Shown here: positions 2,146-60,872 of the stretch, piece after piece
How positions within the stretch are numbered: position 1 is the first letter of the stretch
Layout of the letters: each line of letters begins with the position of its first letter
Position numbers and translations under genes: made by a program
DNA from: a virus
Lineage: Duplodnaviria; Caudoviricetes
Length of the DNA stretch: 60,872 nt
Virus record (IMG/VR): IMGVR_UViG_3300044878_000242
Span: 1-60,872 of that record
Reading direction: 5' to 3' (one strand)
The notes under the pieces: model-generated
Seen by the model: only the letters and a program-made list of their open reading frames with translations
The model's database searches: none
Told to the model about the DNA's origin: nothing

Positions 2146-2176
2146 CGTCTCCTCCTCATTGTTCATTGATCCTTGT

Positions 2177-4749: not shown

Positions 4750-5037
4750 TTATATAGCCTGTCGCTCCGAGACATATATTTGGTTTTTTCGCCACGTCCA
4801 ATAATCCGCATCATTTCCCCAGGCCAGTTCCCCCAGGTACGGCAGCCGCCGCTTCCCATCCACCGCCTCGCCGATCCGCACCGCCTGCACCTGCTCCGGC
4901 CCCAACAGCGTCGAAATCCGCTCCGCCCAATACAGCCCTTCCCCCGCCGGACACTCCACCCCCACCGGCTTTCCATCCATTGGTATCACTGTTAATCTGG
5001 TCATCTGGTTGCCTCCATCATCATTGCTGGTTATCAA
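4750..5037 (-). CDS. Hypothetical protein
   Basis: ORF downstream of the Cro-like gene; likely start MTRLTV after GGAGG. Confidence 0.5.
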   Translation of the reverse strand: MITSNDDGGNQMTRLTVIPMDGKPVGVECPAGEGLYWAERISTLLGPEQVQAVRIGEAVDGKRRLPYLGELAWGNDADYWTWRKNQIYVSERQAI

Positions 5038-5110
5038 TTACCAATTACTAACTACTAACTACTAACTACTAATTACTAATTACTAATTACTAACTACTAA
5101 CTACTAATTA
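5035..5110. repeat. Heptamer tandem repeat (ACTACTA/ACTAATT)
   Basis: About 10 consecutive 7-nt units. Confidence 0.9.
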
Positions 5111-5448
5111 CCAACCTCATCCCCCGGCCCGGTCCCAAGGTGAACCAACTTCCGCTCTTTTGGGGAAGGTGCTGATGCTAACGTCTTCGCTTTTATCATG
5201 TCATTGGGAATAAAACCGGGGAGTTGATCCACCCGTAGCCGGGCCATCATCTGATCTTGGGGTTCATCGACTTCATCGCCGTTAGGCATAGCCGCCAGGG
5301 GGAGTTGGGTCATTCTGCGCACACGTTCTGTTTCAATCAATTTGCGCACAATGTAGGATACGGAACGATCATCTTGCTTCGCCCAACGTTCAAGCAGTTC
5401 CTTCGTATCCGTATCCGTACTAAATGTCATTATGATAGGCTCTCCCAT
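5104..5448 (-). CDS. Ribbon-helix-helix DNA-binding protein (Cro-position regulator)
   Basis: IMTFSTD...LLERWAKQDDRSVSYIVRKLIE matches the RHH/CopG pattern; divergent from the repressor. Confidence 0.7.
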   Translation of the reverse strand: MGEPIIMTFSTDTDTKELLERWAKQDDRSVSYIVRKLIETERVRRMTQLPLAAMPNGDEVDEPQDQMMARLRVDQLPGFIPNDMIKAKTLASAPSPKERKLVHLGTGPGDEVGN

Positions 5449-7451: not shown

Positions 7452-7631
7452 CAAGCCCCACTCCCCCTACTATCTACCCCTACTCCCTACTCCCCCCCCC
7501 GGAAACGGTAAAATTTACCAACTCGTAGGGGGGGGTAAATAGGGCAGTAGGGCCTAGTAGGGGCATAGTAGGGGGTAGTAGGGGCACAGTAGGGGGTAGT
7601 AGGGGCAGTAGGGGCACCCAGGGAGACGCAT

Positions 7632-10461: not shown

Positions 10462-10488
10462 AGGTCACACAAACAACCTTGTCCCCCC
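10462..10488 (+). repeat. 28-bp motif, copy 3 (right arm 1 nt short)
   Basis: AGGTCACACAA-ACAACC-TTGTCCCCCT. Confidence 0.8.
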
Positions 10489-10527
10489 TACTCCCTACTT
10501 CCTACTCCCTACTCCCTACTCCCTACT

Positions 10528-12610: not shown

Positions 12611-12722
12611 AGTTTTGTCTTAGTTTGAACTTAATTACTTTTGGGTAGTTTCTTCCATCTTCCACTCACCACCCCGAATGGTTATACGAATATCCCCTTT
12701 AGTAATTACTAATTACTAATTA

Positions 12723-14303
12723 CTAACCCCCATAATGCCCCGCGTTGGTCGGCCAATTATTGTCCAGCCCGCGTTTGCGCTGGGCCAAATACATCTCGAG
12801 CCGGTCCGGCAGCAGATCAGTTCTTAGCCTGGCTCGATGCGCTTCAAAATCATAATCCACCTCGCCCAAAAAAAACGTCTCGCCGGTGGGCAACCATAAC
12901 AGCCGTTCTCCGGCCCGTATCTGGCTAACCGGGACCATGGCCCCGCCTTTAGTTGGAATCGAGCCGGCGATCTCGAACTCCCCCTTTGTTTTAGGATTCG
13001 CATATCGCCGTAAAAATGATTGCCCAATTGCATCAGCCAGCGCCGCATCGCCTGAACCTATGTCGATATCCATATCTCTTTGCCCATATTGGGCCACACT
13101 GGCGGCGTCCGTCAGGTTGGTATTTTCGTAGGGCGTCCGGTACCTCACCACCGCTTTTTCGTCAACGTACCTTACCGCGATCCAGTTAGATAGCGCCTCC
13201 CGGCTGCTCGGTGATAGACTGTATTTTGTCAGCCCTTTTACTGTCCGTGGATCGAGTTTATATTCATAATCCGCCGTGCTATAAAGCTTTGTTTCGGCCT
13301 GGGGCAATCGGTCGCTGCTGCTGCCCCCATCCCACACGGCAAACCCCCATTGATTAAGCGAGGCGTCCCCAAATTCCAAAATGTCCTCAATCATAGATAA
13401 GGCGTTCTGGAACCCGTCGCCTCGGCTTATAAACGGGATCAATGTCTGCCCCGGATCAGCGATAAGCGAATAGTCATTGCTGATAAACTCACCGGCCAAA
13501 TTTAACACCGTCTGGACCATCCCCCCCTGGGTATTCGCCGTGCTCCCGTACACTGTCAAAGCGGATATGTCTATCCAGTCGTTCTGATCAAACGTATTGG
13601 CATCCTGGGGCGACAGCCTGAACCGCATCAACGTGGATGACGCGCCGCTAAAATTAACCGTTACGTCTACCGGCCCGGCGGTACTGCTGTTAAGCTGCCA
13701 CTGGATGACCCCGTTCCCGTCTATCAGGCGAACTGCTATTATCTCGCCCGTCCTGATTTGGTAAGTGAACGTCACCCGTACAATCGGGTTGTTGGCCGGC
13801 ATAACATATTCCTGCCAATGATAATTAGTCGGGCTGATCACCGTATCAATGGCCGCCATTCGCATTTTGATTCTATTGTCGCGCTTTTCAACGACTGCCA
13901 CGTTTTGATCGGCGTAGACGTAGGTGAGTTGGCTATCCGGCCAGGTTAGCCGGTTGATGGCATTGTCTTCGGCGAATCTATACCGCAGCTTTCGATCCTT
14001 TAGCGAGGTCACCCAACCCAGCGCCTCTATCATTACGCTCTGCTCCGGCCCTGATAGCATGCGCTCCGGGTCTTCCAGCCGGCCCTGGTACACAATATAC
14101 TCACCATCCTTAACAATGACCTCATCCCCGCCGCCATAGACAATTTCTTTGAGTACATCACGCTTAACCACACCCGAATATTGCCCAAACCCGCCCGGCC
14201 AGCGCGAGCCGCAGCGTTGGCCGGTCAACCATTTGCTATCCCGAAAGAACGGATCGCTGATCTGGGTGCCGTTAAATTGCCGGAAATAGGTTTGAATGGT
14301 CAT
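12723..14303 (-). CDS. Tail/baseplate hub protein
   Basis: Position in the tail module; ASVAQYGQR and IRAGERL motifs typical of tail-tip hub proteins. Confidence 0.65.
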   Translation of the reverse strand: MTIQTYFRQFNGTQISDPFFRDSKWLTGQRCGSRWPGGFGQYSGVVKRDVLKEIVYGGGDEVIVKDGEYIVYQGRLEDPERMLSGPEQSVMIEALGWVTSLKDRKLRYRFAEDNAINRLTWPDSQLTYVYADQNVAVVEKRDNRIKMRMAAIDTVISPTNYHWQEYVMPANNPIVRVTFTYQIRTGEIIAVRLIDGNGVIQWQLNSSTAGPVDVTVNFSGASSTLMRFRLSPQDANTFDQNDWIDISALTVYGSTANTQGGMVQTVLNLAGEFISNDYSLIADPGQTLIPFISRGDGFQNALSMIEDILEFGDASLNQWGFAVWDGGSSSDRLPQAETKLYSTADYEYKLDPRTVKGLTKYSLSPSSREALSNWIAVRYVDEKAVVRYRTPYENTNLTDAASVAQYGQRDMDIDIGSGDAALADAIGQSFLRRYANPKTKGEFEIAGSIPTKGGAMVPVSQIRAGERLLWLPTGETFFLGEVDYDFEAHRARLRTDLLPDRLEMYLAQRKRGLDNNWPTNAGHYGG

Positions 14304-24725: not shown

Positions 24726-27611
24726 TCACACTCCCGTTTTAATCTTTCCGGTGCTAACTACTCCTGCAACCGCGCCGGTGCTAATCATTCCCGAAACCGT
24801 GCCAGTGGGTTTTACTCCATATACAGTGGCAACTACCGTAATAACCGCCAGGTTTAGGATTGACCCGGATCCCGATAGGGTCAACACGCCCAAGGTAATA
24901 TCCGCCGCTCCCATAACTCCGCGGCTGCCGGTGGCCGTCAGTACCAACGCCCCCAGGGTATTCGACGCTGCCGCTTGAATTGCCAGTGCTCCGTCCGAGC
25001 TGCTGGTCAGCGCCCCCAGCGTGTTCGAGGCCGCGCCCGCTATGGGCAGCGTCCCTGCCGAGGCCAGGGCCAACGCACCTAGCGTGCTTGAGGCCGCGCC
25101 CGCTATAGGCAGCGTCCCTGCCGAGTTGCTGGTCAATGCACCCATCGTGTTTGAGGCCGCCCCCACTATGGGCAGCGTCCCTGCGGCGCTGCTGGTGAGC
25201 GTCCCCAGCGTTATGACCGCGATTCCTAGTTGTCCACCGCCGCCGGTGGCCGCCAGGGTCAACGCACCCAGGGTATACGACGCTGCCGCTTGAATTGCCA
25301 GCGTCCCTGCCGAGGCCAGCGTCAACGCCCCCAGCGTATTCGATGCCGCGCCGGCTATAGGCAGCGTCCCTGCGGCGCTGCTGGTGAGCGTCCCCAGCGT
25401 TATGGCCGCCACGCCGGTCGTGCCAGCGGAACCGGTAGAGACCAGGGTCAGTGCGCCCAAAGTGTTTGATGCCGCGCCGGCTATCGGCAACGTCCCGGCG
25501 GCGCTGCTGGTGAGTGCCCCCAGCGTGTTTGAGGCCGCTGCCCGGAGCGCGATAACCGCTGCACTGGACAGGGTCAATGCCCCCATCGTGGGAGAAGCCG
25601 CCGCCTGAATTGCCAAAACCCCGGCTGCTCCGAGAAATGCCGTAGTAAATATCCAGGTCGGCCCATTGTTGGCCCCACCTGTGGTAAAAGAGCCGTTGTT
25701 CCCATTGCCACTGCTATCGGCAACGGTTGTGCCGGTCCCCTCATCAAGGTGAAATAGCCCAACCGTGTTTGCGTCTGCCGCAAACGGTGCTGATGGAACC
25801 GTGTAGGTTGTGCCGGTATAACGGATTGAATTAGAAACGCGGATCTCATCAAATTGGCCGATAAACTGACCAACCGTCCAATCAATAGCATGCTTTTCGC
25901 CGCCTAAACACATATACCGGTTGTAGGTGGAGGCGGCAGAATTTGAGGCAATATGCACATCGCCGGACGGCCCGCCCGCCTGATTTGCTTCCCGTACTCC
26001 ATCAAGATAAATTGCCATATCGCCGGATGACCGTACCCGCGTAATGGCAACGTGATGCCAAACATTGTCCCTGATGTTGGTCGATCCAATTATTGTGCGT
26101 TGACTGCCGGCGCTGTTTTCAATGCCAAAGGTCAAACGCCCATCAGTGATAGATAGCCCCCAATCACCGCCGCTGCCTAATGACCCTAAAATATCCCGGT
26201 CAAATAGAATCGGGGAATTGATCCAGCTATAATTGGCCCCGGCTGTGGCGGTGCCGTTGGGGTTGGTCGGGTCCGCCTTGACCCAAAACTCTATGGTAAA
26301 ATCAGCTTGACCAACGTTAATGGCGTCAGCCGGGTTGCACGGGATATATATTTTGTCAACGTTTGAGGCATTGCCTCCCCCGTAGACCCGCAGGCCCGCC
26401 CCGTTGTTTGTTACCAGTGCGCCGAGGGTTGCAGCTAAAATGCCCTGTTTTGTTGATAGGCCGGTGGCCGCCAGGGTCAGCGCTCCGAGGGTGTTGGATG
26501 CCGCTGCCCGGAGCGAGATAACCGCCGCGGCAGATAGAGTTAGCGCCCCCAGGGTGGGAGAGGCCGCGCCGGCTATCGGCAGCGTCCCGGCGGCGCTGCT
26601 GGTCAACGCGCCTAATGTGATACTGGCATCGCCAGTCAAACCACTCGCCAGCGTACCCGCTGAAGCCAGCGTCAACGCCCCCAACGTATTAGAGGCCGCC
26701 CCGGCTATCGGCAGCGTCCCGGCGGCGCTGCTGGTGAGCGTCCCCAGCGTGTTTGATGCCGCTGCCCGGAGCGCGATAACCGCTGCGCTAGATAGGGTCA
26801 ACGCCCCCAACGTATTAGAGGCCGCCCCGGCTATCGGTAGCGTCCCGGCGGCGCTGCTGGTGAGCGTCCCCAGCGTTATGGCCGCCGCTCCGGTTCTGCT
26901 CGCCGCTGCCGCAAAAGGGAAAACTATAGGCGGGCTGCCCCAGCCAATTGGCGGCCCGTCTTCATCGGTTAGAGTTCCGCTCTCTGTCCAGTTGTAGCCG
27001 TTGCCGGAGTAGTCCCGCGCTCGCTCCCCGCTGCCATTTAGAGCCGGCGTCCAGATATGGAGATTGCTGAAAAACAATGGGCGGACTGAATATTGCTCAT
27101 TCTGCAATTCAGCTAGCGTCCTGGCCACCGTCCAGACTTTGATATTGGCAATTCTGCCGTTGTATGGGTCCGAATTCCCGCTGGTACCGGCCCCAAATTC
27201 CATCCGGGTCGGCGCAGTCCTGCCGGTGGTAGATGTGCTATTAGTGGCCTGACTCGCCAAAGAAGTTGTCGCAGTTCCGATATACCCCACCCGGCTGTTA
27301 TTGGCGCTGCGGATCAGACCGACACAATACCAGGTGTTGGGGCTGAGGTTTGTTGAGCCAATCGTCTCCACAAACGCGCCGGCCTCCTGGAATCCGACCG
27401 ATAACCGAGTATCAACCCCCGATTGGCCAACTAATGCCAGATAGTCCGTATCGTTTGTGTTGTCGTTAATTTGCCACAGATTAAAATAGACGTTGTTGCC
27501 CGGACGGGTCGGGAAATAAAACCAAAAACACACCGTATAATTTGCATCATAGCTGGGCAAATTAGCGGTTCGCAGCAGTCTATCTGCGGCAGCGTCAAAT
27601 CGAACAGCCAT
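24726..27611 (-). CDS. Fibre-like protein with two LamG domains and ~21-aa repeats
   Basis: LamG motifs (FTIEFWVK, WHHVA, GQFDEIRVS); many AASNTLGALTSSAAGTLPIAG repeats. Confidence 0.8.
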   Translation of the reverse strand: MAVRFDAAADRLLRTANLPSYDANYTVCFWFYFPTRPGNNVYFNLWQINDNTNDTDYLALVGQSGVDTRLSVGFQEAGAFVETIGSTNLSPNTWYCVGLIRSANNSRVGYIGTATTSLASQATNSTSTTGRTAPTRMEFGAGTSGNSDPYNGRIANIKVWTVARTLAELQNEQYSVRPLFFSNLHIWTPALNGSGERARDYSGNGYNWTESGTLTDEDGPPIGWGSPPIVFPFAAAASRTGAAAITLGTLTSSAAGTLPIAGAASNTLGALTLSSAAVIALRAAASNTLGTLTSSAAGTLPIAGAASNTLGALTLASAGTLASGLTGDASITLGALTSSAAGTLPIAGAASPTLGALTLSAAAVISLRAAASNTLGALTLAATGLSTKQGILAATLGALVTNNGAGLRVYGGGNASNVDKIYIPCNPADAINVGQADFTIEFWVKADPTNPNGTATAGANYSWINSPILFDRDILGSLGSGGDWGLSITDGRLTFGIENSAGSQRTIIGSTNIRDNVWHHVAITRVRSSGDMAIYLDGVREANQAGGPSGDVHIASNSAASTYNRYMCLGGEKHAIDWTVGQFIGQFDEIRVSNSIRYTGTTYTVPSAPFAADANTVGLFHLDEGTGTTVADSSGNGNNGSFTTGGANNGPTWIFTTAFLGAAGVLAIQAAASPTMGALTLSSAAVIALRAAASNTLGALTSSAAGTLPIAGAASNTLGALTLVSTGSAGTTGVAAITLGTLTSSAAGTLPIAGAASNTLGALTLASAGTLAIQAAASYTLGALTLAATGGGGQLGIAVITLGTLTSSAAGTLPIVGAASNTMGALTSNSAGTLPIAGAASSTLGALALASAGTLPIAGAASNTLGALTSSSDGALAIQAAASNTLGALVLTATGSRGVMGAADITLGVLTLSGSGSILNLAVITVVATVYGVKPTGTVSGMISTGAVAGVVSTGKIKTGV

Positions 27612-30338: not shown

Positions 30339-30424
30339 ATCTCCCTGAGACGATTTATTTACACAGGTAGCAGAGCGACCCTTGCCGCCCTGCTACCTAC
30401 TACCTACTGCCTACTTCCTACTGC

Positions 30425-31540
30425 CTACGAACTCATATCCGTGGTACTGATTACCACCCGCTCCGGCGCTTCGATCACTGGCAAGCCGTTGCTTACCCCG
30501 CGACCTTCCAGCGCCCATGGCTCCTGCTCCGGCGTGTACACATCCGCCCACCGGCCAGGGCGACCGCCGCCCTCAACCGTGGGTCCCAGATGGGTATAGC
30601 CCAACGCTTCCGGGGCCTCCATTGTCGATCCCTCGCCTACAACGTAGCGGGGCCGGGCATCGGTCCCCACAAAAACCACCTTACCCCGTGGCATAAACGG
30701 CACTTTTGTGGTCTGGCCAGGATTGGCCAGGTCAAAAATCTCGCCTTCATACCCGTAGGGGATCAGGTTGATCCGGTACAACTCGTTCTGGTCCAGGTTG
30801 GGGCTGGTGTCCGTCCCGCCGGCTCGCCGGGTGATGGTGATCACCCCGTTGTTATCGGTGATCTGCCCAATGGCGTTGACGCTGTTATACACAATGTCGT
30901 CCAGGGTGTCCGGGTGAAGGATGACCGCCCGGATTTGCCGCTTGAGCTGCTTGCGGGCCAACTTCACATCGTCCCACCATTTGGAGGTGGTGCCGTAATA
31001 TGAGTTGCCGGAGCCGGTCCGGGCCGTCAGTTTGTTCGCGGCCGGGATACCATAATCAACCGATAGCGTCTTTTTGTTGAACGTCCAGTTGATCGCGCCC
31101 GTCACCAAGGCCTGACCACGCAGATACTCAAACGTGTCCAGGTGGGCCTGCACAATCAGCTTGTCCACAAAGTTCAGAGCCTCGCTTTGCAGCGTCTCCA
31201 GCGTGGGTTGATTGTTGATCATCATGTGCATCAACATATTTTGCAGTTGACGCAGGGCTGATTCCGGCAGCCGCACCCGGTTGGCGATTTTGGCCGTTTC
31301 CTCAGTGAAGGTCTGGACATCGATCACCCCGCCCTCGGCGTATGGCGAATCCATCGCCGCCAGGCCGGCCATCGTGGTCCGCACCGTCATTGAGCCGGAT
31401 TTGGCCTGATAATCATAACTGTTTCGTTCAGGCAACAACGTCGCAAACAGATACGCTGCCGGCGGTCGAGCCTGATTCGCTACCATAAACGCGGCCCCGG
31501 TGGGCAGCGCTGCTAACGCCTGTGAGAAATTAAAGTTCAT
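30425..31540 (-). CDS. Major capsid protein
   Basis: 371 aa; EYLRGQALVTGAI and VDYGIPA motifs of the major capsid E-like family; follows scaffold and decoration genes. Confidence 0.85.
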   Translation of the reverse strand: MNFNFSQALAALPTGAAFMVANQARPPAAYLFATLLPERNSYDYQAKSGSMTVRTTMAGLAAMDSPYAEGGVIDVQTFTEETAKIANRVRLPESALRQLQNMLMHMMINNQPTLETLQSEALNFVDKLIVQAHLDTFEYLRGQALVTGAINWTFNKKTLSVDYGIPAANKLTARTGSGNSYYGTTSKWWDDVKLARKQLKRQIRAVILHPDTLDDIVYNSVNAIGQITDNNGVITITRRAGGTDTSPNLDQNELYRINLIPYGYEGEIFDLANPGQTTKVPFMPRGKVVFVGTDARPRYVVGEGSTMEAPEALGYTHLGPTVEGGGRPGRWADVYTPEQEPWALEGRGVSNGLPVIEAPERVVISTTDMSS

Positions 31541-35844: not shown

Positions 35845-35872
35845 CTACTCCCTACTCCTTACTCCCTACTTC

Positions 35873-36526
35873 TTACTCCCTGATAAAATACCACAAGCTA
35901 GGCCACGCCTCTTTGCTCACGTACAACTGCCGGCCCGTCCGCTGCGTAAACTCTATCACCGCCGACCGTACCCCGAATTTACCCAACGGCCCATCGTAAT
36001 CAACAAAATCGTGGCCGGCCACCATCCCCCCCGGCCTCACCACCTCCGACCAGGCTGCCAGATCGGCCAACACGGCCTCATAACTGTGATTGCCATCCAG
36101 ATAAACAAAGTCCAGGCTCGCCGGCCCCAGAAGGTTCGCCATTTTTAGCGACGACTCAATCACAATTTGCCCCCGTCCCCCAAACGCTTTCATCGCCTGA
36201 TACGTGGCCGATAGGTTGGAGCTGTGTTCGCCATCGCTCACATTCGCCACATCATCATACCCATCCGGCTGATGTTTCCACAAGTCCACCAAAAACAATT
36301 CCCCCTCCCAATGCTGTAACAGATAGCTGCTAAACTCGCCACGCTGCACCCCCACCTCGGCCCCCTGTTTGGCCCCCATCAACCGTAACAGCCCTGGCAG
36401 CCCCTGCCGGGTGCAGCACTCCATAAACCCATCAGCGCCGGCTACAGTCAAATGCAGCTCTAACGACACGGCCTCGTTGCCCAAATATGCCCCGACGGGC
36501 AAATGAAATGTAGCCAGGGTTGTCAT
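35873..36526 (-). CDS. Class I SAM-dependent methyltransferase (Methyltransf_24-like)
   Basis: GAEVGVQRG, LDFVYLDGNHSYEAV..DL..W...VRPGG..AGHDF. Confidence 0.85.
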   Translation of the reverse strand: MTTLATFHLPVGAYLGNEAVSLELHLTVAGADGFMECCTRQGLPGLLRLMGAKQGAEVGVQRGEFSSYLLQHWEGELFLVDLWKHQPDGYDDVANVSDGEHSSNLSATYQAMKAFGGRGQIVIESSLKMANLLGPASLDFVYLDGNHSYEAVLADLAAWSEVVRPGGMVAGHDFVDYDGPLGKFGVRSAVIEFTQRTGRQLYVSKEAWPSLWYFIRE

Positions 36527-42268: not shown

Positions 42269-43435
42269 CTACCTCACTAAAAGTGTCTGCACCGCGATTT
42301 CGCCCCTAGACGTTAGCCGCAACGAATCAATAGCTATATTCCCTGCTATTTCGTCCCCTTGCCAACCGTGTGGCCACGTGTTTGTAGCCCAAAGCTCCCT
42401 GATTCGCGCCTCCTCCTCGGTATTGATTAAATCCACCGAGGCCCGGCCCTGAATATCCAAAACCCGCTCCAACCCATAAGCGCGTGCTTCCATCGTTAGC
42501 GGCCCCAAACGCTGGACATTCTGGCTGTACTTACCATCCTTCCTCACTTCCGGCTCACTCTTACGAATACGCCATTTTGCCTTGATCAATTCCCGGAAAA
42601 GCGGCTTCAATTCCAGTAATGGGCTAAGGTGCGCCCACTCCGGCGTTTTTACCAACCGAATCAAGGCCGTGTCTTTGTTGACCAGATTGCACCCAATGCA
42701 GCCGGTGCGGGCATCGTCCTCCCCGTAAACCACCGCGATTTTGTCCACGTTATAGCCGTGCCTGGACTGTTCAAAATAAAGCCAATCGTAAATATGGCAC
42801 AATCGCCAATGCAGCAGCGGGGCCAGCGTATCCGCTACGCTCTTCGGCGTACTCACCTGAAACCAGCCTTGCCCACACTCACCCGAATCCTTTGAGCAAC
42901 TGACTGCTATCCGCTGATCTCGTGCGGCGCTTTCGCCAATGCGGACGCCGGTTAGCATGAGTAACTTTTCGCCCGCCTGCTCTCTGAGGTTTGACAACGC
43001 TGCCATCATCGGATCGACCTTAAGGGCGACGGTGCACCACCGGAAACGGTTTTTGGGCGGTGGCACCCCCCGGCCCAACATATACACATAAAACCGCTTA
43101 TCCAGTGGAGGCAAAACCACCTCAGCGTTATATCCATCATTCCTCAAAACATTCAATAACTTTACCGCCGTTTGCTGGAGCGGTGGTAACTCCTGGCGAG
43201 TATCAGCATACAGAATCGAAAGCGATTCCGGCGCAGCTACCTTGCCCGATTTGATAGCCCACGCCACAAATGCAACGGTGGCGCTGCTGTCTTTGCCGCC
43301 ACTGTAAGCAATGGCCCAATGCCGGTATCTCTCCCCATACGCGCTCAGGCTTGCCAGGCTCAACTCAATCGAGCTCTCCAAATCCAAGCGCTGATCCTCA
43401 AATAAGGAAATCTGCCTGCTAATTCCTTTACTCAT
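42269..43435 (-). CDS. PAPS-reductase family protein (DndC-like, putative DNA modification)
   Basis: AYSGGKDS PP-loop, RWCT..LK..P, GVRIGESAAR, RTGCIGC Fe-S motif. Confidence 0.85.
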   Translation of the reverse strand: MSKGISRQISLFEDQRLDLESSIELSLASLSAYGERYRHWAIAYSGGKDSSATVAFVAWAIKSGKVAAPESLSILYADTRQELPPLQQTAVKLLNVLRNDGYNAEVVLPPLDKRFYVYMLGRGVPPPKNRFRWCTVALKVDPMMAALSNLREQAGEKLLMLTGVRIGESAARDQRIAVSCSKDSGECGQGWFQVSTPKSVADTLAPLLHWRLCHIYDWLYFEQSRHGYNVDKIAVVYGEDDARTGCIGCNLVNKDTALIRLVKTPEWAHLSPLLELKPLFRELIKAKWRIRKSEPEVRKDGKYSQNVQRLGPLTMEARAYGLERVLDIQGRASVDLINTEEEARIRELWATNTWPHGWQGDEIAGNIAIDSLRLTSRGEIAVQTLLVR

Positions 43436-43680
43436 TGTTCCTTGATCCTTGATCCTTGATCCTTGTTCATTGTTCCTTGTTCATTCCTCTTCAGCCGCTC
43501 GCAGCGCCGCTGAAGCTCGGCGATATACTGATCTTTTCGATTGAGGTCTAAACAAAGCAACTTGACCTGATCTCTGAGTAGTCGAATCTTTTGATTGAGC
43601 CTGGCAAGCCGGCAATTCAGCATTATAAAACCTAATGCGGCTATCGCCACCAGGCTCACCCAAAACCACGTTTCAAGCAT
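43432..43680 (-). CDS. TM plus coiled-coil protein
   Basis: N-terminal TM segment, heptads. Confidence 0.5.
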   Translation of the reverse strand: MLETWFWVSLVAIAALGFIMLNCRLARLNQKIRLLRDQVKLLCLDLNRKDQYIAELQRRCERLKRNEQGTMNKDQGSRIKEQ

Positions 43681-52822: not shown

Positions 52823-53059
52823 TTACAGGTCACACAAACGGGATTGTTCATCCTCCAGGAGCAATAATCCCAATTTGAAAAAAATCTCCGCCGCCGTCTG
52901 TTCCCCTATACCCTTCACCCCATCGAGCGCCACCTCCGCAATCCCCTGGATTCCCTCATCCCGTCTGTACACCTCCAGCGCCGTCTCCCGCCCCAACTTG
53001 TCTACTGTCCCCTCATCATCCAACATAATCAATTTCCAAAACCTCGCCACATCATTCAT
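52823..53059 (-). CDS. Small protein with HhH-like motif
   Basis: LDGVKGIGEQTAAEI. Confidence 0.55.
   Translation of the reverse strand: MNDVARFWKLIMLDDEGTVDKLGRETALEVYRRDEGIQGIAEVALDGVKGIGEQTAAEIFFKLGLLLLEDEQSRLCDL
52827..52854 (+). repeat. 28-bp motif, copy 9
   Basis: AGGTCACACAA-ACGGGA-TTGTTCATCCT. Confidence 0.85.
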
Positions 53060-53097
53060 TGTTCATTGATCATTGTTCATTGTTCATTGTTCATTGA

Positions 53098-53445
53098 TCA
53101 CGCCATCGGACTATCATCATTCAACGCGCTTTGCCCCTGCCCCTCGACCACCTGAAACCGATCATACGGCTCCACCCAATACCCTGGCTGCTGTTGCGGC
53201 TGGCCTCCGTAAAGCGGTAGCGCCGGCATCCTGATATGATTATTGATCCGGGGCGGCTGCCCCCCGCCAAATACCGCCGCCGTCCATTGCCGGTTCAAAA
53301 ATAATAGCGCCAGGGCCATCACCACCCCCCCCAAAATAAACATTGCCAGCGCCAAGAAAATAATCCAGGCTGTTTCATTGACTGCAAAAAGGTAGACCAA
53401 CCCTGCGCCTATCGCCAGGCCCAATCCCAAACCAACAGCTTTCAT
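53098..53445 (-). CDS. Two-TM membrane protein
   Basis: Hydrophobic N-terminal half; coupled to the FtsK-like gene. Confidence 0.6.
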   Translation of the reverse strand: MKAVGLGLGLAIGAGLVYLFAVNETAWIIFLALAMFILGGVVMALALLFLNRQWTAAVFGGGQPPRINNHIRMPALPLYGGQPQQQPGYWVEPYDRFQVVEGQGQSALNDDSPMA

Positions 53446-55877: not shown

Positions 55878-56835
55878 CGCAGTTCACCCGCTTAATCAAG
55901 CTCTCTACAAATTCAATCAACCCCGGGCAACTCAAGCACCTCGCCGTCAACCCGTTGGCCGCGCACGGGCCACACAACTCCTCAGCCATCGCCCGTATTT
56001 CCTCAGCGCAGGCCGGGCAAAAACAGCGCACCGCGATTGTCTCCGGCGCCGGCAGTTGCACCCGCTTTACCTCTGCCTGCTGCACGGCCACCCTTGCCGC
56101 AGGCGGAGCCACTACTACCGCCTGGTCCAGGGTTTGTTTCACCTTGGCAACCGACCGTACAATAACCTCAATGCTCGCCCCCTTCTCCGCAAACCGCCGC
56201 GCTAATTGCAGCCTGGTCTCTTCCGGCAATTCGAGCAAAGCCTTGGTTACATGGCTATCCTTGCTGATTTGCCCACTTTCCATATACCCCATAATCTCCG
56301 GGTCTAATTTTAATATATCCATCCGGCTCTTGATATACCCCTGCGATTTTCCGCACAATTTAGAAACCCTATTAAGGCTCTTGTGGATTTTTAGAAGCCG
56401 CTCGTAAGCCCGCCCCTCCTCTACCAGAGTCAAATCCTCTCGCTGCAAATTCTCCACCACCGCCACAGATTCTCTGTCCATCTGCTCCGGCGCCACCCTC
56501 ACCCGTACCTCAACTCGTTTTAGAATCGGGTACGTTCCCAAAACCTCCCAGGCGTCATCCCGACACACCAGCTCAATCGCTTCATCCAGCGGAACCAGGT
56601 CCGTCGATAACGCAATCGCGCACATCGCCCTGGAGCGCCGTTCCCCGGCGAGCAGCCGGTAGTGCCCATTTTCCGCGTACACAATCGGCGGATTGAGCAG
56701 GCTGTGCTGCCGGATGCTGTCCACCAATTCACTCATGCTGCCTGCCTCAAACTTCTGCCGCACCTGCTGCGGCCCTGGCTTGATTTTGTCCAGCGTTGTT
56801 TTTCGCTCTTGCAACATCTCCAATTCGATCATCAC
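55867..56835 (-). CDS. parB: ParB-family protein with Cys-rich C-terminus
   Basis: ELVDSIRQHSLLNPPIV, LLAGERR, ENLQREDL..VEEG, HTH; CFCPAC..CGPC..CLSC. Confidence 0.85.
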   Translation of the reverse strand: MMIELEMLQERKTTLDKIKPGPQQVRQKFEAGSMSELVDSIRQHSLLNPPIVYAENGHYRLLAGERRSRAMCAIALSTDLVPLDEAIELVCRDDAWEVLGTYPILKRVEVRVRVAPEQMDRESVAVVENLQREDLTLVEEGRAYERLLKIHKSLNRVSKLCGKSQGYIKSRMDILKLDPEIMGYMESGQISKDSHVTKALLELPEETRLQLARRFAEKGASIEVIVRSVAKVKQTLDQAVVVAPPAARVAVQQAEVKRVQLPAPETIAVRCFCPACAEEIRAMAEELCGPCAANGLTARCLSCPGLIEFVESLIKRVNCDDV

Positions 56836-56885
56836 TCTACCCTCGCCCTATTTTCTACTAATTACTAATTACTAATTACTAACTA

Positions 56886-57113
56886 CTAACTACTGGTCAA
56901 CCGCCACTGCTTCACCCGGCGCCCCTTAAAATGCTTATCCTGCCGCCCGATATGAAACAGCCCGCACCATTTGCACCGGTACACCCGCCGCTGCTCCCTG
57001 AGCGCCCCCACCCGATACAACACCATCAACCCGTGAAACGCCTGCTCAAACGTCTCATACCGGCCCGATTTGTTAGTACACTCCCTGCGGCGCAGCCGGC
57101 GCTTACTGGACAT
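56886..57113 (-). CDS. Small zinc-finger protein
   Basis: C..K..Y...YRCKWCGLFHIG. Confidence 0.6.
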   Translation of the reverse strand: MSSKRRLRRRECTNKSGRYETFEQAFHGLMVLYRVGALREQRRVYRCKWCGLFHIGRQDKHFKGRRVKQWRLTSS

Positions 57114-57330
57114 TGTGTCCATTCCGGCTAACTGCCAACTCCCCCGCATCCAGCGCCCTCACTACGTCGCCCAACTCCACGATCAACCGGCCCCTAGCGT
57201 CCCGGCAGTGCAGCCGTCCGGCTCTCAGATTCTCGTCAACCCAGCGCACCGCCCCCAGCGCCGCCAAATACGCCTGGTTCCGCTCTTTTAGCGCCGCCGT
57301 GTCCATTAACTGATTAAAATTGCCGTCCAT
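57103..57330 (-). CDS. Hypothetical protein
   Basis: GGAGG RBS before MDGNF. Confidence 0.5.
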   Translation of the reverse strand: MDGNFNQLMDTAALKERNQAYLAALGAVRWVDENLRAGRLHCRDARGRLIVELGDVVRALDAGELAVSRNGHNVQ

Positions 57331-57352
57331 AAAACGCCTCCTGCCAACTCCG

Positions 57353-57829
57353 CTACGCAATTGCCCGATCAAGCTCCGGCAATTTTATCTCTGATTTTTC
57401 GCTAATAATAGCCGCCAACCTAAAATTCGCCGCGCATTTCAAGATGTGATCGGCCAGACGTTTCTCCTCATCGGTCAAGCTTTGCCGGGGCGTTTTTATC
57501 ACAACCTCACTTCCTCGCACAATTTTATCCAGCCCCCCATTAAGGTAAGTCACACCAAGGTTGATTCTGCCTGAATCGTTCAGGCATTGAAACGCCTCCC
57601 CCCTAAATACCGGTTTAAGGATTACATTGTGATTTTTCTCCAGTTTCTTGCGCCACACCTGGGTAATCGTTTTCCAACGCCTCTGGTCCCATTTAATCCC
57701 TATCACCTCCTCTATTTCCGCGTATTTGATCTGCTGGTTCGGAGCCGGGGTACCAAATTTATCAAGGAGCGCATTAACCTCCGGCTCGGTAGTTGCGCCC
57801 CCCTTTGGAAATACGTAATTTTTTGTCAT
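57353..57829 (-). CDS. Uncharacterised partner of the Cas7-like gene (possible winged-helix DNA-binding protein)
   Basis: ATGA overlap with 57826-58491; basic, IKYAEIEEVIG helix pattern. Confidence 0.65.
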   Translation of the reverse strand: MTKNYVFPKGGATTEPEVNALLDKFGTPAPNQQIKYAEIEEVIGIKWDQRRWKTITQVWRKKLEKNHNVILKPVFRGEAFQCLNDSGRINLGVTYLNGGLDKIVRGSEVVIKTPRQSLTDEEKRLADHILKCAANFRLAAIISEKSEIKLPELDRAIA

Positions 57830-58491
57830 TTCATCAACTCCTCAACTTGAACCGTAAATTTACCAAATGATCCCGGAGATTTTGGTGAGGACGGTCGCCA
57901 ATCGCCCAGCCCGCAGTAGGCTCCGGCAGTGGTGATAATAGTGGTTAAAACGTGCTTCGTTATCCGCTCATCAAAAACGGTCAGACTGCCCGCGAGCCGC
58001 CAATTATCGAAGCGCGGTCTAACTCTAACGTGTTTGGCCGCGCCGATTTTGGCCCGCTTCACAAACAACTCAAACCCCAGCGACTCCACGGTCTCCTTAT
58101 GCTGCTGAAAATCATCAACCCGGGTTAGAGGCTTTATCTTATCGTAAAGCACCTCAGCTCCATTGATTAAAATCGCCCAGGCCGATTGGTCTACCACGAT
58201 GCCCGATTGAGTCACCGCTTTAAATGTTTCCGTCCCCTTCCCCGTGCTGATTTTTTTGCCGCCTTCGCGCAGCATCGTCATTAAATTATCAGCCGGAACA
58301 ACGATCTTCCCACCCTCCACATACAGGCAGCCCATCCAGCGCCACGCCGGTGTTCTGTCGTCGCCGGGCACGCTGCTTTTGCTGTGAGTTGGATCTGTAG
58401 ACCACTTTTTCAGCATATCACCCCAATCCAAATTGTCCTGATGTAGCAACAATGGAGTCTCCCCAACCAAAATAACTTTATATCGTTTCAT
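57826..58491 (-). CDS. Solitary Cas7/RAMP-like protein (Vipr-like)
   Basis: RAMP hallmarks: beta1 YKVILVGETPLLLH, VVPADNLMTMLREGG, VRVRPRF, and C-terminal G-rich loop GLGDWRP...GSFGKFTV. Confidence 0.75.
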   Translation of the reverse strand: MKRYKVILVGETPLLLHQDNLDWGDMLKKWSTDPTHSKSSVPGDDRTPAWRWMGCLYVEGGKIVVPADNLMTMLREGGKKISTGKGTETFKAVTQSGIVVDQSAWAILINGAEVLYDKIKPLTRVDDFQQHKETVESLGFELFVKRAKIGAAKHVRVRPRFDNWRLAGSLTVFDERITKHVLTTIITTAGAYCGLGDWRPSSPKSPGSFGKFTVQVEELMK

Positions 58492-58529
58492 CGTTAGCCC
58501 CTTATAAATAAATTTGTTAGTAAAAGTTT

Positions 58530-58743
58530 GGCTTTACAGCCCCTCGATCCGTGCCATGCCGTGCCGCGCCCTGCCACGCCTCACCCCGCCACGCCGTGAT
58601 CCTTGCCCTGCCTAGCCAGGCCTCGCCCAGCCAAGCCGTGCCTCGCCCAGCCAAGCCATGCCCAGCCGTGATCCTCGCCTTGCCCTGCCTTGCCTTGCCG
58701 CGCCAAGCCGCGCCGCGCCGTGATCCCTGCCTAAAACCAGGCC
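58530..58743 (-). ncRNA. GGY-NN pentamer array: candidate guide RNAs in three tracts with GGATCAC separators and a 3' GNRA hairpin
   Basis: Tracts of 9 (58719-58675), 13 (58667-58603) and 9 (58595-58551) GGYNN units; GGATCAC three times; terminal GGATCG; GGCT-GTAA-AGCC hairpin. Confidence 0.8.
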
Positions 58744-58766
58744 ACACAAGAAAGCTTGTTCATCCT
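58739..58766 (+). repeat. 28-bp motif, copy 11 (at the 5' edge of the GGYNN array)
   Basis: AGGCCACACAA-GAAAGC-TTGTTCATCCT. Confidence 0.8.
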
Positions 58767-58768
58767 CT

Positions 58769-59020
58769 CTACCCAAACAACCCCTCCAACAGCGCCTCAG
58801 TCTCCCTCACCTCCGGCTGGGCCGCCGCCCGGGCCTCGACCAATCCACCTGCCGCCACCCGGTCCAGAATATCCGCCCGCCGGTGGGGGTCCGCCGCGCC
58901 GAGCATCGCCAGCAGCTCCCCCAACTCCACACTATGGAATCGGGGATCAAACCTCACGTTCAGCCGGTACATCCTCCCCGGATTCGCCGGCCGCCCCGAT
59001 TTCCCCTTTGCCCCAGCCAT
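58769..59020 (-). CDS. Small DNA-binding-like protein (possible ParR-type adaptor)
   Basis: MAGAKGKSGRP...YRLNVRFD strand then helices; two genes downstream of parM. Confidence 0.45.
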   Translation of the reverse strand: MAGAKGKSGRPANPGRMYRLNVRFDPRFHSVELGELLAMLGAADPHRRADILDRVAAGGLVEARAAAQPEVRETEALLEGLFG

Positions 59021-59026
59021 ATTGAA

Positions 59027-59806
59027 TTACCAACTCCGTTGTGCTTTCTTAAATTTGGCTTCCATCTCATCAACTTCATAGCGGACACTCTCGGCCAACC
59101 GCCGGGCCTCGGCTGCCTCTCTTTGGGCGTCATCAGCTTTCCGGCGGGCGGCCGATTCCGCTTCTCCGTGATAATATTCAGCGTTAGAATACGCGCGTTC
59201 AATCTCCTCGATTTGGCCGGTTAATGTATTCCGATCTGCCTGAATTTTAGTAAAAAGGTTGAGCAGGGTGACGGCTACTGGATCGCCCGAAACCTGGTCA
59301 AACAAAGACCTAAGTTTATCATCCTCTTGAACTTTGGCCGTTGCTTTTTTTCTTCGCTGCGCCTCTTTCTCGACCATGTACTCGGCCTCTCTGATCTCTT
59401 CTTCGGCTTGTCTCCACCACGATTTAGCCGCACAGTCCAACGCCTCACCCAGGTTGTCAAACGAATTATATTGGTCAACTCGCCATTTGAGTGTGGTATT
59501 TTTGGAGAGGTCATCTACCTGATTCAAGACAGTGGACAATCCGAAATGATCTGGAATGTTCAGGTGGAAGACGATGGAGTTCAGTCCCGTGTTACCTCTC
59601 CAGTTCCCCTCAAGTTTTCCAAATAATTTAAACTCGCTGATATCAGCCCCCGTATATCCTGCCAAAAACTCGCAAACTGCGGGAAATAGGTTATCTAACA
59701 CGGCCTTTTGTTTTGCTTGTATTTCCTCGTCTCTGGCAATCCGCATGTCCTCCGCCTGGCGGATTTTATCCTGATATTCAATTTTTAATTCTGTAAAAGT
59801 GGTCAT
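59027..59806 (-). CDS. Coiled-coil hypothetical protein
   Basis: AGGAG RBS; long charged helices. Confidence 0.65.
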   Translation of the reverse strand: MTTFTELKIEYQDKIRQAEDMRIARDEEIQAKQKAVLDNLFPAVCEFLAGYTGADISEFKLFGKLEGNWRGNTGLNSIVFHLNIPDHFGLSTVLNQVDDLSKNTTLKWRVDQYNSFDNLGEALDCAAKSWWRQAEEEIREAEYMVEKEAQRRKKATAKVQEDDKLRSLFDQVSGDPVAVTLLNLFTKIQADRNTLTGQIEEIERAYSNAEYYHGEAESAARRKADDAQREAAEARRLAESVRYEVDEMEAKFKKAQRSW

Positions 59807-59847
59807 AATTTTTCTCCTAAATCAAATTGCCCCACCTGGGTGAGGTC

Positions 59848-60872
59848 CTACCCCAGATACCCACTGATCGCCAGCTTTGCTAGCCCCCGCGCGTTGGCCA
59901 TCGCCGGCGCCGGTGCTAACTCCGCATGTGAAAATTCCTTGATCAACCGGCTGGCCAGGGCCACCGCCCCGCCACCGGTCAGGATAATCCGAAACTTTCC
60001 GGCATCTTTCCGTACCCGCTGCCGGATAAACTGCAACACATCCGCCGCCAGGCTGTTAATCGCCTGGTTAATCTCCGCGCTCACGTCCACCGGCTCACCG
60101 TGGGCATACACCATCGCCGCCTCACCATCGAGCAGCCGGCGCAACTGCCAATCGGCCTCGTGCAGCCCCAGGCTCACCCCATACCGCCGCTCGATATTGC
60201 CGATGAACATCTCCGCTGCCCGGGCCATCCCCAGGGCCTCGCCGGCTGTATAGCGCTCGCTCGGCCGGCCGTTCTCCACCGCGAACAAGTCCAGGGTATT
60301 GAAGCCCTGGTCAATCACCAGCACCGGCGCGTTCCGCCCTTCGGCCCCTTTGGACCATTGGCCGGTATTGTTGAACCCCCAGTCCAGCCAGGCCCCCAGC
60401 GGCTGGGCCACCGTCGCCCGAATTTTTACCACCTCTATCGCGGCCTCAACCCCATTAAAATCAAACCGGTGCCGTCCTACCAACCACGCCGCCATACCCC
60501 GTTCGGTATCCTCGGCCTGGCTTTTATTCGCCAGCATCTCCACCGGCAGCCCAATCGCTACGGCCACCTTCTGCCCGGTCAAACCCAGTTGCGCCACCAG
60601 CGCGTAAAACATCGCCCGCAGCTCCGAGCTGCTGACGAATCGGCTCTTGTCCAACTGCTCGATGGGCCGGGTATAGGTGGCCACATTGGGCCCCACCAGG
60701 TACTCCATCCCCTCAAACCCCACCTGAAACGGCAGATCACCCCGCCGGGCAATGTCCAGGCCGGCCAGGTTGAATCCGCTCGGCTCAATAATTCGCCCCG
60801 CGCCCGCCACGCTCGGCATGGTCGCCGTATTCATCTGCCCATTGATCCAGGCCGCTTTTTGGCAGCCATAGC
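59848..60872 (-). CDS. ParM/StbA-family actin-like ATPase (PRTRC protein D-like), 5' end cut by the window
   Basis: GLPVE, IDQGFNTLD (phosphate 2), ILTGGGA (adenosine), ANARG. Confidence 0.88.
   Translation of the reverse strand, partial: YGCQKAAWINGQMNTATMPSVAGAGRIIEPSGFNLAGLDIARRGDLPFQVGFEGMEYLVGPNVATYTRPIEQLDKSRFVSSSELRAMFYALVAQLGLTGQKVAVAIGLPVEMLANKSQAEDTERGMAAWLVGRHRFDFNGVEAAIEVVKIRATVAQPLGAWLDWGFNNTGQWSKGAEGRNAPVLVIDQGFNTLDLFAVENGRPSERYTAGEALGMARAAEMFIGNIERRYGVSLGLHEADWQLRRLLDGEAAMVYAHGEPVDVSAEINQAINSLAADVLQFIRQRVRKDAGKFRIILTGGGAVALASRLIKEFSHAELAPAPAMANARGLAKLAISGYLG
60326..60872. repeat. Imperfect direct terminal repeat, right copy
   Basis: Aligns without gaps to 1-547. Confidence 0.95.

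What the first reader, a model, noticed from the sequence alone, without database searches (positions are those of the whole stretch)
58530..58743. Array architecture: three guide-like units with a decodable dinucleotide message
Seen, minus strand 5'->3': GGCAG-GGATCAC-[9 units]-GGATCAC-[13 units]-GGATCAC-[9 units]-GGATCG, then a GGCT-GTAA-AGCC GNRA hairpin. Of the 31 pentamers, 30 begin with GGC and one with GGT. NN strings are unit 1 GC GC TT GC AA AA AG AA GA; unit 2 TG AT TT TG GA AC TT TG GA CT TA AG AA; unit 3 GT GG GA GT AG GC AC AT AC. A simple microsatellite would homogenise all five positions, but here three are fixed and two vary widely. Unit 2 contains TT-TG-GA twice and is four pentamers longer, which suggests expansion by slippage. 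Inference: GGATCAC marks processing or unit boundaries, and the NN strings encode gapped targets such as GCnGCnTTnGCnAAnAAnAGnAAnGA and GTnGGnGAnGTnAGnGCnACnATnAC.
Basis: partly seen in the sequence, partly recalled or inferred. Interest (0 to 1): 0.9.

Follow-up and report, generated by a model that had tools for sequence, protein, structure and literature searches.

The report
Phage VIPR guide-RNA array

Summary
On the minus strand, 58731..58544 reads GGCAG, GGATCAC, 9 GGYNN, GGATCAC, 13 GGYNN, GGATCAC, 9 GGYNN, GGATCGA. Thirty units are GGC and one is GGT. It is far beyond chance: 19 matches against 0.05 expected.

It is not an orphan repeat. The next gene downstream (58491..57826) is a Cas7-like RAMP homologous to the studied Vipr protein of Escherichia phage SUSP1, and it keeps that protein's GGY-gripping residues. 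The gene after it (57829..57353) is Vap1-like.

In 72 of 77 related loci, GGYNN runs lie beside the vipr gene on its strand: 335 runs against 1 on the other strand. They are mostly punctuated by a 7-nt GGAAC-NN word, of which GGATCAC is the local form.

This is a VIPR system (bioRxiv 10.64898/2026.04.26.720920 and .720927).

Still open:
- No credible target was found.
- No RNA data exist for this phage.
- The array lacks the structured 3' tails of the SUSP1 clade.

Earlier agents of this scan reported VIPR arrays on other DNA. Verdict: real, correctly read, a new member of a known kind.

The parts
58732..58743 (-). Leader: two degenerate units (GGCCT GGTTT) plus TA, directly after the stop codon region of the upstream 83-aa ORF
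   Evidence: Sequence read
58727..58731 (-). Lone GGCAG unit before the first separator
58720..58726 (-). Separator 1, GGATCAC. This is the local form of the clade-wide GGAAC/GGATC + NN punctuation
   Evidence: Clade consensus: 91 of 126 short gaps are 7 nt
58675..58719 (-). Guide tract 1: 9 GGCNN units, NN = GC GC TT GC AA AA AG AA GA
58668..58674 (-). Separator 2, GGATCAC
58603..58667 (-). Guide tract 2: 13 GGCNN units, containing a 4-unit (20-nt) direct duplication
58596..58602 (-). Separator 3, GGATCAC
58551..58595 (-). Guide tract 3: 9 units, 8 GGC and 1 GGT
58544..58550 (-). Closing separator, GGATCGA
   Evidence: Arrays in relatives also end with a GGAAC/GGATC word
58530..58541 (-). Small hairpin GGCT-GTAA-AGCC. 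Possibly a 3' cap, but it is weak and not conserved in the clade
   Evidence: present in MFE and centroid. (no excess structure after terminal runs in relatives)
57826..58491 (-). vipr gene: 221-aa minimal RAMP (Cas7-like), family phrog_4652
57353..57829 (-). vap1-like accessory gene: 158 aa, a winged-helix-like domain followed by two long helices

Best explanation
The block is the guide-RNA (vrRNA) array of a VIPR system carried by a temperate tailed phage. The cassette on the minus strand is array, then vipr (221 aa), then a vap1-like gene (158 aa).

Inferred by homology to the SUSP1 and P. fulva systems: the array is transcribed on the G-rich strand. One Vipr protomer binds each pentamer and grips GGY. 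The NN pairs are left exposed and read double-stranded DNA with one target base skipped per unit. The result is transcriptional silencing of a rival mobile element.

Inferred from comparison within this clade: the 7-nt GGA(A/T)C-NN words end one guide and start the next. There are three guides of 9, 13 and 9 units, or 10, 14 and 10 if the C-NN-GG that follows the inserted A(A/T) counts as a unit. A purine where the pyrimidine pocket expects Y, together with the 2-nt register shift, would stop the Vipr filament and probably mark the cut site. This replaces the long structured tails of the SUSP1 clade.

Shown here: the sequence pattern, the protein homology, the conserved contact residues, the clade-wide linkage and its strand polarity. 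Not shown here: transcription, processing, binding and targets.
For: 1. Protein.
- The AlphaFold model has mean pLDDT 79.6.
- Foldseek against the PDB gives 82 matches at E<=0.001. The top ones are all Cas7/Csm3 backbone subunits of type VII and type III CRISPR complexes (best E 5e-6).
- tblastn finds 121 phage records, including phiSUSP1 at E 3e-9.
- BLASTP against SUSP1 gp039 gives 26% identity and E 1e-19. SUSP1 H17, R138, C173 and D177-W178-R179 align to H17, R158, C193 and D197-W198-R199. H17, R158, W198 and R199 are invariant, and D197 nearly so, in 18 relatives.
- A profile of the family hits the PDB chain named 'SUSP1 Vipr protein' at E 4e-13.
- Both proteins fall in phrog_4652.

2. 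Accessory gene.
- Homologues lie on the vipr strand in 58 of 81 loci examined.
- The family profile matches SUSP1 Vap1 at hhalign probability 95%, E 3e-8.
- Two relatives hit phrog_5926, the SUSP1 Vap1 family.
- The model (pLDDT 90) shows a winged-helix-like topology.

3. Array linkage.
- A triplet-agnostic period-5 scan found arrays in 52 of 59 IMG/VR loci. All are on the gene strand. The triplet is GGC, or only GGT in 4 loci, with one further locus (L069) carrying both.
- Allowing GG[CT], 72 of 77 loci have arrays, with 335 sense runs against 1 antisense. Control triplets gave 1 to 28 runs.
- All 16 NN dinucleotides are used, from 2.4% to 15.8%.
- The window's unit counts (9, 13, 9) fit the published 9-16.

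4. Separators. 91 of 126 short inter-run gaps are 7 nt, with consensus GGAAC-NN and GGATC variants. Arrays begin and end with this word.

5. Mechanism. The published structures show one protomer per repeat and a pyrimidine pocket that excludes purines (paper 10.64898/2026.04.26.720927, Results part 1). The 1-nt skip rule is in paper 10.64898/2026.04.26.720920, Results.

6. Self-targeting. There is no self-target in the window, as the paper reports for its own systems.

7. Modularity. A contig of another sediment run joins 57324 to 58735 and so skips exactly array + vipr + vap. Other contigs of that run carry the array unchanged.
Against: - No target found. Exact 1-nt-skip scans gave 0 hits for guide 2 in viral, genome and metagenome collections and 0 for guide 3 in viral contigs. 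Guide 1 gave 1 hit, at about the number I estimated by hand for chance. It lies in a 34% GC contig where the other two guides do not converge.
- 231 guides from the clade, tested against 514 kb of related loci, showed no preference for the 1-nt skip over 0, 2 or 3.
- No sigma-70-like promoter was found on the minus strand near the array. Transcription may come from the upstream operon.
- There is no structured, invariable 3' tail between guides. Sequences after terminal runs in relatives are no more structured than random windows. One feature of the studied type II vrRNAs is therefore absent.
- The cassette-deletion contig is thin: depth 2.6, with matched sides of 25 and 34 nt.
Confidence: 0.9

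Rival explanations
1. The array is a parC-like centromere. It would be a block of tandem protein-binding sites for the neighbouring ParM-type partition operon: parM at 60834..59848, a 259-aa gene, and an 83-aa gene that ends 37 nt upstream.
For: The array directly follows a ParM-like actin ATPase operon (phrog_691 at E 1e-30; Pfam ALP_N; NCBIfam ParM). Centromeres are tandem repeats. This analogy is from general knowledge of ParMRC, F and P1 systems, recalled and not from any call.
Against: None of the 81 related loci with such arrays has a homologue of ParM, the 259-aa protein or the 83-aa protein within about 3 kb. In the same set, 79 have vipr and 58 have vap. The arrays are strictly strand-polar with respect to vipr, 335 runs against 1. 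The variant contig removes the array together with vipr and vap and leaves the par side in place. Only 3 of every 5 bases are fixed.
Confidence: 0.02
2. The locus is a decayed or idle VIPR remnant. The array and genes are of VIPR descent but no longer act as a targeting system. For example, guide 2 may have been scrambled by its 4-unit duplication and the targets lost.
For: No target was found for any guide. Guide 2 carries an internal 20-nt duplication that would break register with an older target. All three internal separators are identical, including their last two bases, which hints at recent copying.
Against: Both genes are intact. The GGY-contact residues are kept. 30 of 31 units are GGC and 1 is GGT, with no decay of the fixed positions. 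The exact-match searches were too strict to find the >=80% matches that the papers accept.
Confidence: 0.06
3. The array is a plain microsatellite or a short coding repeat. The 76-aa ORF at 58747..58517 would encode a pentapeptide-periodic protein, with no RNA-guide role.
For: ORFs run through the array in several frames on both strands. One mycobacteriophage record annotates a gene over its array (Donkeykong gp48).
Against: A GGYNN repeat can contain a stop codon only when NN = TA, so open frames carry no information (direct from the sequence). A slipping microsatellite would homogenise all five positions. Here three are fixed and two use all 16 dinucleotides across relatives. The array is linked to vipr in 72 of 77 loci. 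In Quico and Ecliptus the same stretch is left unannotated.
Confidence: 0.01

Closest known systems
Type II VIPR system of Escherichia phage SUSP1 (vipr, vap1, four vrRNAs); bioRxiv 10.64898/2026.04.26.720920 and 10.64898/2026.04.26.720927
   Same: - The Vipr protein is homologous (26% identity, same PHROG family, same GGY-contact residues).
- The accessory gene is Vap1-like.
- GGYNN repeats lie on the gene strand beside vipr, with 9-13 units per guide.
- It is phage-borne.
- There is no self-target.
   Different: - SUSP1 guides are GGT-rich. Each ends in a conserved tail of about 40 nt that forms a pseudoknot (read).
- Here the guides are GGC. They abut one another through a 7-nt GGATCAC word, and only a weak 4-bp hairpin follows the last one.
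- SUSP1 has one guide upstream and three downstream of the genes. Here all three are upstream.
- SUSP1 is a virulent Felix-O1-like (Ounavirinae) coliphage. This is a temperate phage with integrases and a ParM gene.
'Staggered' vrRNA arrays of VIPR systems (legend of fig. S18 in 10.64898/2026.04.26.720920)
   Same: The guides lie head to tail without tails, and the end of one marks the start of the next. That is how the legend describes these arrays.
   Different: The legend speaks of vrRNAs overlapping by 1 nt. The figure and the supplementary data were not visible to me. I therefore cannot say whether the GGAAC/GGATC + NN punctuation found here is the published layout or a further variant.
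Cas7/Csm3 backbone filaments of class 1 CRISPR effectors (types III and VII)
   Same: The fold is the same: an RRM core, a glycine-rich loop and a thumb. These are the best Foldseek matches. One protomer binds per fixed step along the guide RNA, and bases are flipped out periodically.
   Different: CRISPR Cas7 steps every 6 nt along a contiguous spacer and needs a repeat-derived handle and other Cas subunits. Vipr steps every 5 nt, hides 3 of them and reads 2. It works with a single protein species, and there is no CRISPR array or adaptation genes.
GGCNN arrays beside phrog_4652 genes in cluster F mycobacteriophages (Cheoctovirus, e.g. Quico, Donkeykong) and in Gordonia phage Ecliptus
   Same: The same pentamer code lies on the transcribed strand, directly beside a phrog_4652 (Vipr-family) gene.
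   Different: - The punctuation differs. These arrays use 4-nt GGCA steps rather than a GGAWC word.
- The neighbour gene is phrog_15946, which is not detectably related to the Vap1-like protein here.
- The main text of the first VIPR paper does not contain 'mycobacteri'. Its taxon tables were not visible to me.

Membership tests
VIPR system | A Vipr protein: a minimal single-RRM RAMP of about 20 kD with a G-loop and a thumb, homologous to the studied Vipr proteins | tested here: met
   Foldseek's top hits are Cas7/Csm3. BLASTP against SUSP1 Vipr gives E 1e-19. A family profile hits the PDB chain 'SUSP1 Vipr protein' at E 4e-13. Both proteins are in phrog_4652.
VIPR system | Conservation of the residues that grip GGY in SUSP1 Vipr (H17, R138, C173, D177, W178, R179) | tested here: met
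   They align to H17, R158, C193, D197, W198 and R199. H17, R158, W198 and R199 are invariant and D197 nearly invariant in 18 relatives. The residue list comes from paper .720927, Results.
VIPR system | Tandem YNNGG / GGYNN repeats beside vipr on its strand (at least 4 units in the authors' search; 9-16 units per vrRNA) | tested here: met
   Tracts of 9, 13 and 9 units lie 53 nt upstream of the vipr start, on the same strand.
VIPR system | GGY conserved and NN hypervariable among relatives | tested here: met
   72 of 77 loci carry GG[CT]NN runs, and control triplets are rare. All 16 NN dinucleotides are used in 231 guides.
VIPR system | An adjacent vap accessory gene | tested here: met
   The 158-aa gene overlaps the vipr stop. 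Homologues occur in 58 of 81 loci. hhalign gives 95% probability to SUSP1 Vap1.
VIPR system | vrRNAs are expressed, processed and co-purify with Vipr | not testable with these tools
   No RNA run holds this phage. This needs small-RNA sequencing and a pull-down.
VIPR system | Guides match natural DNA targets under the 1-nt skip rule (>=80% NN match) | tested here: inconclusive
   No hit above chance. The collection scans allow exact matches only, and the host and its rival elements are unknown.
VIPR type II, SUSP1 clade vrRNA architecture | Each repeat tract is followed by an invariable structured 3' tail (a pseudoknot) | tested here: not met
   Only 7 nt separate the tracts, and a 4-bp hairpin follows the last one. 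Relatives show no excess structure after terminal runs. I therefore do not file the array under the SUSP1-type architecture, although vipr and vap1 are of that kinship.
VIPR type assignment (I-VII) | Position in the authors' Vipr tree, together with the vap class and the array architecture | not testable with these tools
   The types are defined in figs. 5 and S16-S18 and in data S4, which are not held. The text says only that types II, VI and VII have DNA-binding vaps.
ParMRC partition centromere (parC) | A repeat block genetically linked to parM/parR | tested here: not met
   0 of 81 related array-bearing loci have ParM or the two neighbouring proteins.

The most novel reading that the evidence does not exclude
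This large Vipr clade has 1664 relatives at E<=0.001 and is spread over many bacterial phyla. It may make its guides in a way not yet described. There are no structured tails or ribozymes. Instead a 7-nt GGA(A/T)C-NN word would act as stop, start and cut signal at once. It puts a purine into the pyrimidine pocket and shifts the register by 2 nt, so the Vipr filament itself would measure out the guides. In natural phage populations the whole array-vipr-vap1 cassette would come and go as one unit.
Probability: 0.3. Interest if true: 0.5.

Novelty: new member of a known kind. Interest (0 to 1): 0.3.

Why it matters
VIPR was reported only in 2026 preprints and has been studied in two Gammaproteobacterial systems. 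This locus adds three things.
- A well-defined member from an uncultured sediment phage.
- Evidence that its clade is large and taxonomically wide.
- A clade-wide separator word, which gives a simple rule for calling guide boundaries in tail-less arrays.

It also shows that the Vipr family is PHROG phrog_4652. The same code sits in cluster F mycobacteriophages, which are easy to work with in Mycobacterium smegmatis. None of this changes the published picture, and the mechanism is taken from it.

Tried and rejected
- Rfam at E<=1 over 56000-60872: no match.
- Pfam, PADLOC and NCBIfam on the two cassette proteins: no family.
- Ideas I held before the fold result: a TRAP-like ring binding site, an R-loop or G-quadruplex origin, and iterons flanking an initiator gene. 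I dropped them once the protein proved to be a Vipr homologue.
- Centromere idea: rejected.
- Target search:
  - Self-search with skips of 0-3 and 100 shuffles per test gave best scores of 13/18, 19/26 and 14/18 at skip 1. Only the 19/26 was unusual (2 of 100 shuffles reach it), and it is still below the 80% bar.
  - Exact gapped patterns gave nothing usable. The one hit is judged chance. It does not extend to the extra AC unit.
  - 231 clade guides against 514 kb of related loci showed no skip preference.
- Host: Vipr relatives in GTDB genomes reach only 38-58% identity and span many phyla, so no host could be named.
- RNA: no RNA holder listed.
- Read laying: pieces of runs X3 and X4 that match inside the array at >=80% likeness may come from other VIPR arrays, because any two GGCNN arrays share 3 bases in 5. 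I do not use them as evidence of NN turnover.
- Foldseek of the Vap model: no match at E<=0.001. The weak hits are mostly winged-helix regulators.
- A conserved structured 3' tail was looked for in relatives and not found: median MFE -9.9 for 137 terminal flanks against -12.5 for 742 random windows.
- GGATCAC elsewhere in the window (17 further sites): these are isolated, with no pentamers around them.
- Supplementary files of the three papers were not available. They may hold the type of this clade, the staggered-array layout and the taxon list.

Full report
**What is there.** The window is a 60872-base IMG/VR virus record, classed as linear and about 66% complete. Nearly all of its genes lie on the minus strand. 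It encodes a major head protein, a head morphogenesis protein, a tyrosine integrase, a serine recombinase and a ParM-like ATPase, so it is a temperate tailed phage.

On the minus strand, 58731..58544 reads GGCAG, GGATCAC, 9 units, GGATCAC, 13 units, GGATCAC, 9 units, GGATCGA. Thirty units are GGCNN and one is GGTGA. A GGCT-GTAA-AGCC hairpin follows at 58541..58530. Four consecutive GGCNN units occur 19 times, all inside the array, against 0.05 expected from shuffles. The record has no other such place. That is a 20-nt, four-unit direct repeat.

**How the identity emerged.** A blastn search of the surrounding 3.9 kb against GenBank phages matched only the array. The hits were 27 Mycobacterium phage records (Cheoctovirus in those I opened; I know that genus as cluster F) and 2 Gordonia phage records. 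These phages have long GGCNN arrays on their transcribed strand. In Quico and Ecliptus the array touches a gene of PHROG family phrog_4652. The 221-aa gene just downstream of the window's array belongs to the same family.

This protein has 1664 relatives at E<=0.001 in the large protein collection. All are unnamed and without Pfam domains. In 52 of 59 IMG/VR loci encoding a relative, a scan that did not presuppose the triplet found period-5 arrays. All lie on the gene strand, just upstream or downstream of the gene or of the next gene. The triplet was GGC, or only GGT in four loci, with one further locus carrying both.

With 18 GTDB genome loci added, 72 of 77 loci carry GG[CT]NN runs of 5 or more units. 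There are 335 runs on the gene strand and 1 on the other. Control triplets gave 1 to 28 runs. All 16 NN dinucleotides are used, from 2.4% to 15.8%.

**The protein.** The AlphaFold model has mean pLDDT 79.6. Its best PDB matches are Cas7/Csm3 backbone subunits of type VII and type III CRISPR complexes, with 82 matches at E<=0.001 and a best E of 5e-6.

In the same step, earlier notes of this scan pointed to 'VIPR' systems and a 2026 preprint. I treated that as a lead. I read the Results, Discussion and three methods sections of bioRxiv 10.64898/2026.04.26.720920. I read part 1 of 2 of the Results of 10.64898/2026.04.26.720927. For 10.64898/2026.10.15.759431 I read the outline and some passages.

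I then tested the link directly.
- tblastn with the window protein finds phiSUSP1, the studied phage, at E 3e-9, among 121 phage records.
- BLASTP against SUSP1 gp039 gives 26% identity and E 1e-19. The published GGY-contact residues H17, R138, C173 and D177-W178-R179 align to H17, R158, C193 and D197-W198-R199. H17, R158, W198 and R199 are invariant and D197 nearly invariant in 18 relatives.
- A family profile hits one PDB sequence, which the depositors named 'SUSP1 Vipr protein', at E 4e-13.
- SUSP1 gp039 is itself in phrog_4652, at E 1e-96.

**The accessory gene.** The 158-aa gene that overlaps the vipr stop has same-strand homologues in 58 of 81 loci examined. Its family profile matches SUSP1 Vap1 with hhalign probability 95% and E 3e-8 over 122 columns. 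Two relatives hit phrog_5926, the SUSP1 Vap1 family.

Its model (pLDDT 90.3) has a helix-strand-helix-helix-hairpin topology followed by two long helices. Foldseek gives only weak matches, with best E 0.024, mostly to winged-helix regulators. The papers describe type II vaps as predicted DNA binders.

**Mechanism.** According to the papers, one Vipr protomer binds each pentamer. Two neighbouring protomers hold G1, G2 and Y3, and the pyrimidine pocket excludes purines. N4 and N5 pair with target DNA, and every third target base is skipped. The result is transcriptional silencing on either strand without a PAM. The natural targets reported are rival satellites, prophages and other VIPR systems.

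For this locus the mechanism is inferred by homology. Nothing about its RNA or its binding has been measured.

**The separators.** In the 77 related loci, 91 of 126 short gaps between adjacent runs are 7 nt. The consensus is GGAAC plus two variable bases, and GGATC forms also occur. Arrays open and close with the word. GGATCAC is therefore the local spelling of a clade-wide punctuation mark.

Read in the authors' YNNGG register, the word amounts to a 2-nt insert, A(A/T), between two regular units. The two variable bases after it may then be the first NN of the next guide. In that case the guides have 10, 14 and 10 units.

My inference is that the purine at the Y position and the 2-nt slip end the Vipr filament and mark the cut. 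The legend of fig. [quoted passage not shown] I could not see the figure, so I cannot say whether that layout is the same as this one.

Unlike SUSP1, where each tract is followed by a conserved pseudoknot tail, there are no tails here. In relatives, the 52 nt after terminal runs are no more structured than random windows: median -9.9 kcal/mol for 137 flanks against -12.5 for 742 windows. The window's 4-bp hairpin is thus not a clade feature.

**Targets.**
- The window holds no self-target. The best skip-1 scores are 13/18, 19/26 and 14/18. Only the 19/26 is unusual (2 of 100 shuffles reach it), and at 73% it is still below the 80% bar. This agrees with the papers' controls.
- Exact 1-nt-skip patterns gave 0 hits for guide 2 in viral, genome and metagenome collections and 0 for guide 3 in viral contigs.
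- Guide 1 gave 1 hit, in a 34% GC contig. The other guides do not converge there. With only 18 specified bases, my hand estimate is about one chance hit in a collection of that size. The skipped bases do fall on wobble positions of an Ala/Lys-rich ORF, but that alone happens by chance about one time in three.
- 231 guides from the clade, tested against 514 kb of related loci, showed no preference for any skip length.
- These searches are too small or too strict to decide, so the targets remain unknown.

**Rivals.** The neighbouring ParM operon made a centromere plausible. However, 0 of 81 related loci carry ParM or its two neighbouring proteins near the arrays. The variant contig described below removes the array together with vipr and vap. 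Open reading frames through the array carry no information, because a GGYNN repeat can hold a stop codon only when NN = TA.

**Population hints.** In a second sediment run, one 395-nt contig joins 57324 to 58735 with 39 other letters between. It thus skips exactly array + vipr + vap. Other contigs of that run carry the array's 3' half unchanged. This suggests that the cassette is gained or lost as a unit. The contig is thin, though: depth 2.6, with matched sides of 25 and 34 nt.

**Verdict.** The kind was published in 2026 preprints, and earlier agents of this scan reported VIPR arrays on other DNA. The novelty is therefore that of a new member, with a separator rule worth recording.

Noticed in passing
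L009 3960-4190, L010 3930-4265, L011 3975-4190 (phage records NC_028751, NC_051648, OP820472): 27 Mycobacterium phage records (Cheoctovirus in those opened; cluster F from my own knowledge) and 2 Gordonia phage records carry long GGCNN arrays on the transcribed strand, beside a phrog_4652 (Vipr-family) gene and a phrog_15946 gene. They are punctuated by 4-nt GGCA steps. These easily cultured phages look like VIPR carriers. The main text of the first VIPR paper does not mention mycobacteriophages.
   Followed up: partly
window 57325-58734: A contig of another sediment run joins 57324 to 58735 with 39 other letters between. It lacks exactly array + vipr + vap, while other contigs of that run hold the array. 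This would be a presence/absence polymorphism of the whole cassette, but the support is thin.
   Followed up: partly
window 59022-59846: Contigs of runs X1 and X3 join 59021 to 59847 with 3 letters between, and a contig of run X4 joins 58999 to 59849 with 73 letters between. All skip the 259-aa coiled-coil gene, so in relatives parM is followed directly by the 83-aa gene. That makes the 83-aa protein a candidate ParR-like adaptor and the 259-aa gene an insert.
   Followed up: no
window 2156-2194, 5036-5114, 7465-7616, 10486-10527, 12699-12726, 30389-30428, 35845-35881, 43423-43482, 53055-53100, 56856-56894: There are at least ten short arrays of tandem heptamers (AATTACT, CCCTACT, TTACTAA, CCTACTA, CTACTCC, TTGTTCC, TTCATTG, TACTAAT and others, with about 4 to 11 copies each). 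By comparison with my rough ORF map, most lie in gaps between genes. They resemble cyanobacterial STRR repeats (recalled, not from any call). Their function is unknown.
   Followed up: no
window 24726-27611: A 961-aa virion structural protein gene contains nested 63-, 126- and 189-nt tandem repeats. These appear to be in-frame protein repeats.
   Followed up: no
window, 17 sites outside the array: GGATCAC occurs 20 times against 5.3 expected, with none of 100 shuffles reaching 20. The 17 sites outside the array are isolated, on both strands, and have no pentamers nearby. The cause is unknown; codon usage or a methylation motif are possibilities.
   Followed up: partly
window 59848-60834, 2177-3421, 7632-9218: The phage carries a ParM-type partition ATPase together with a tyrosine integrase and a large serine recombinase. 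It may therefore be able to persist either integrated or as a plasmid.
   Followed up: no
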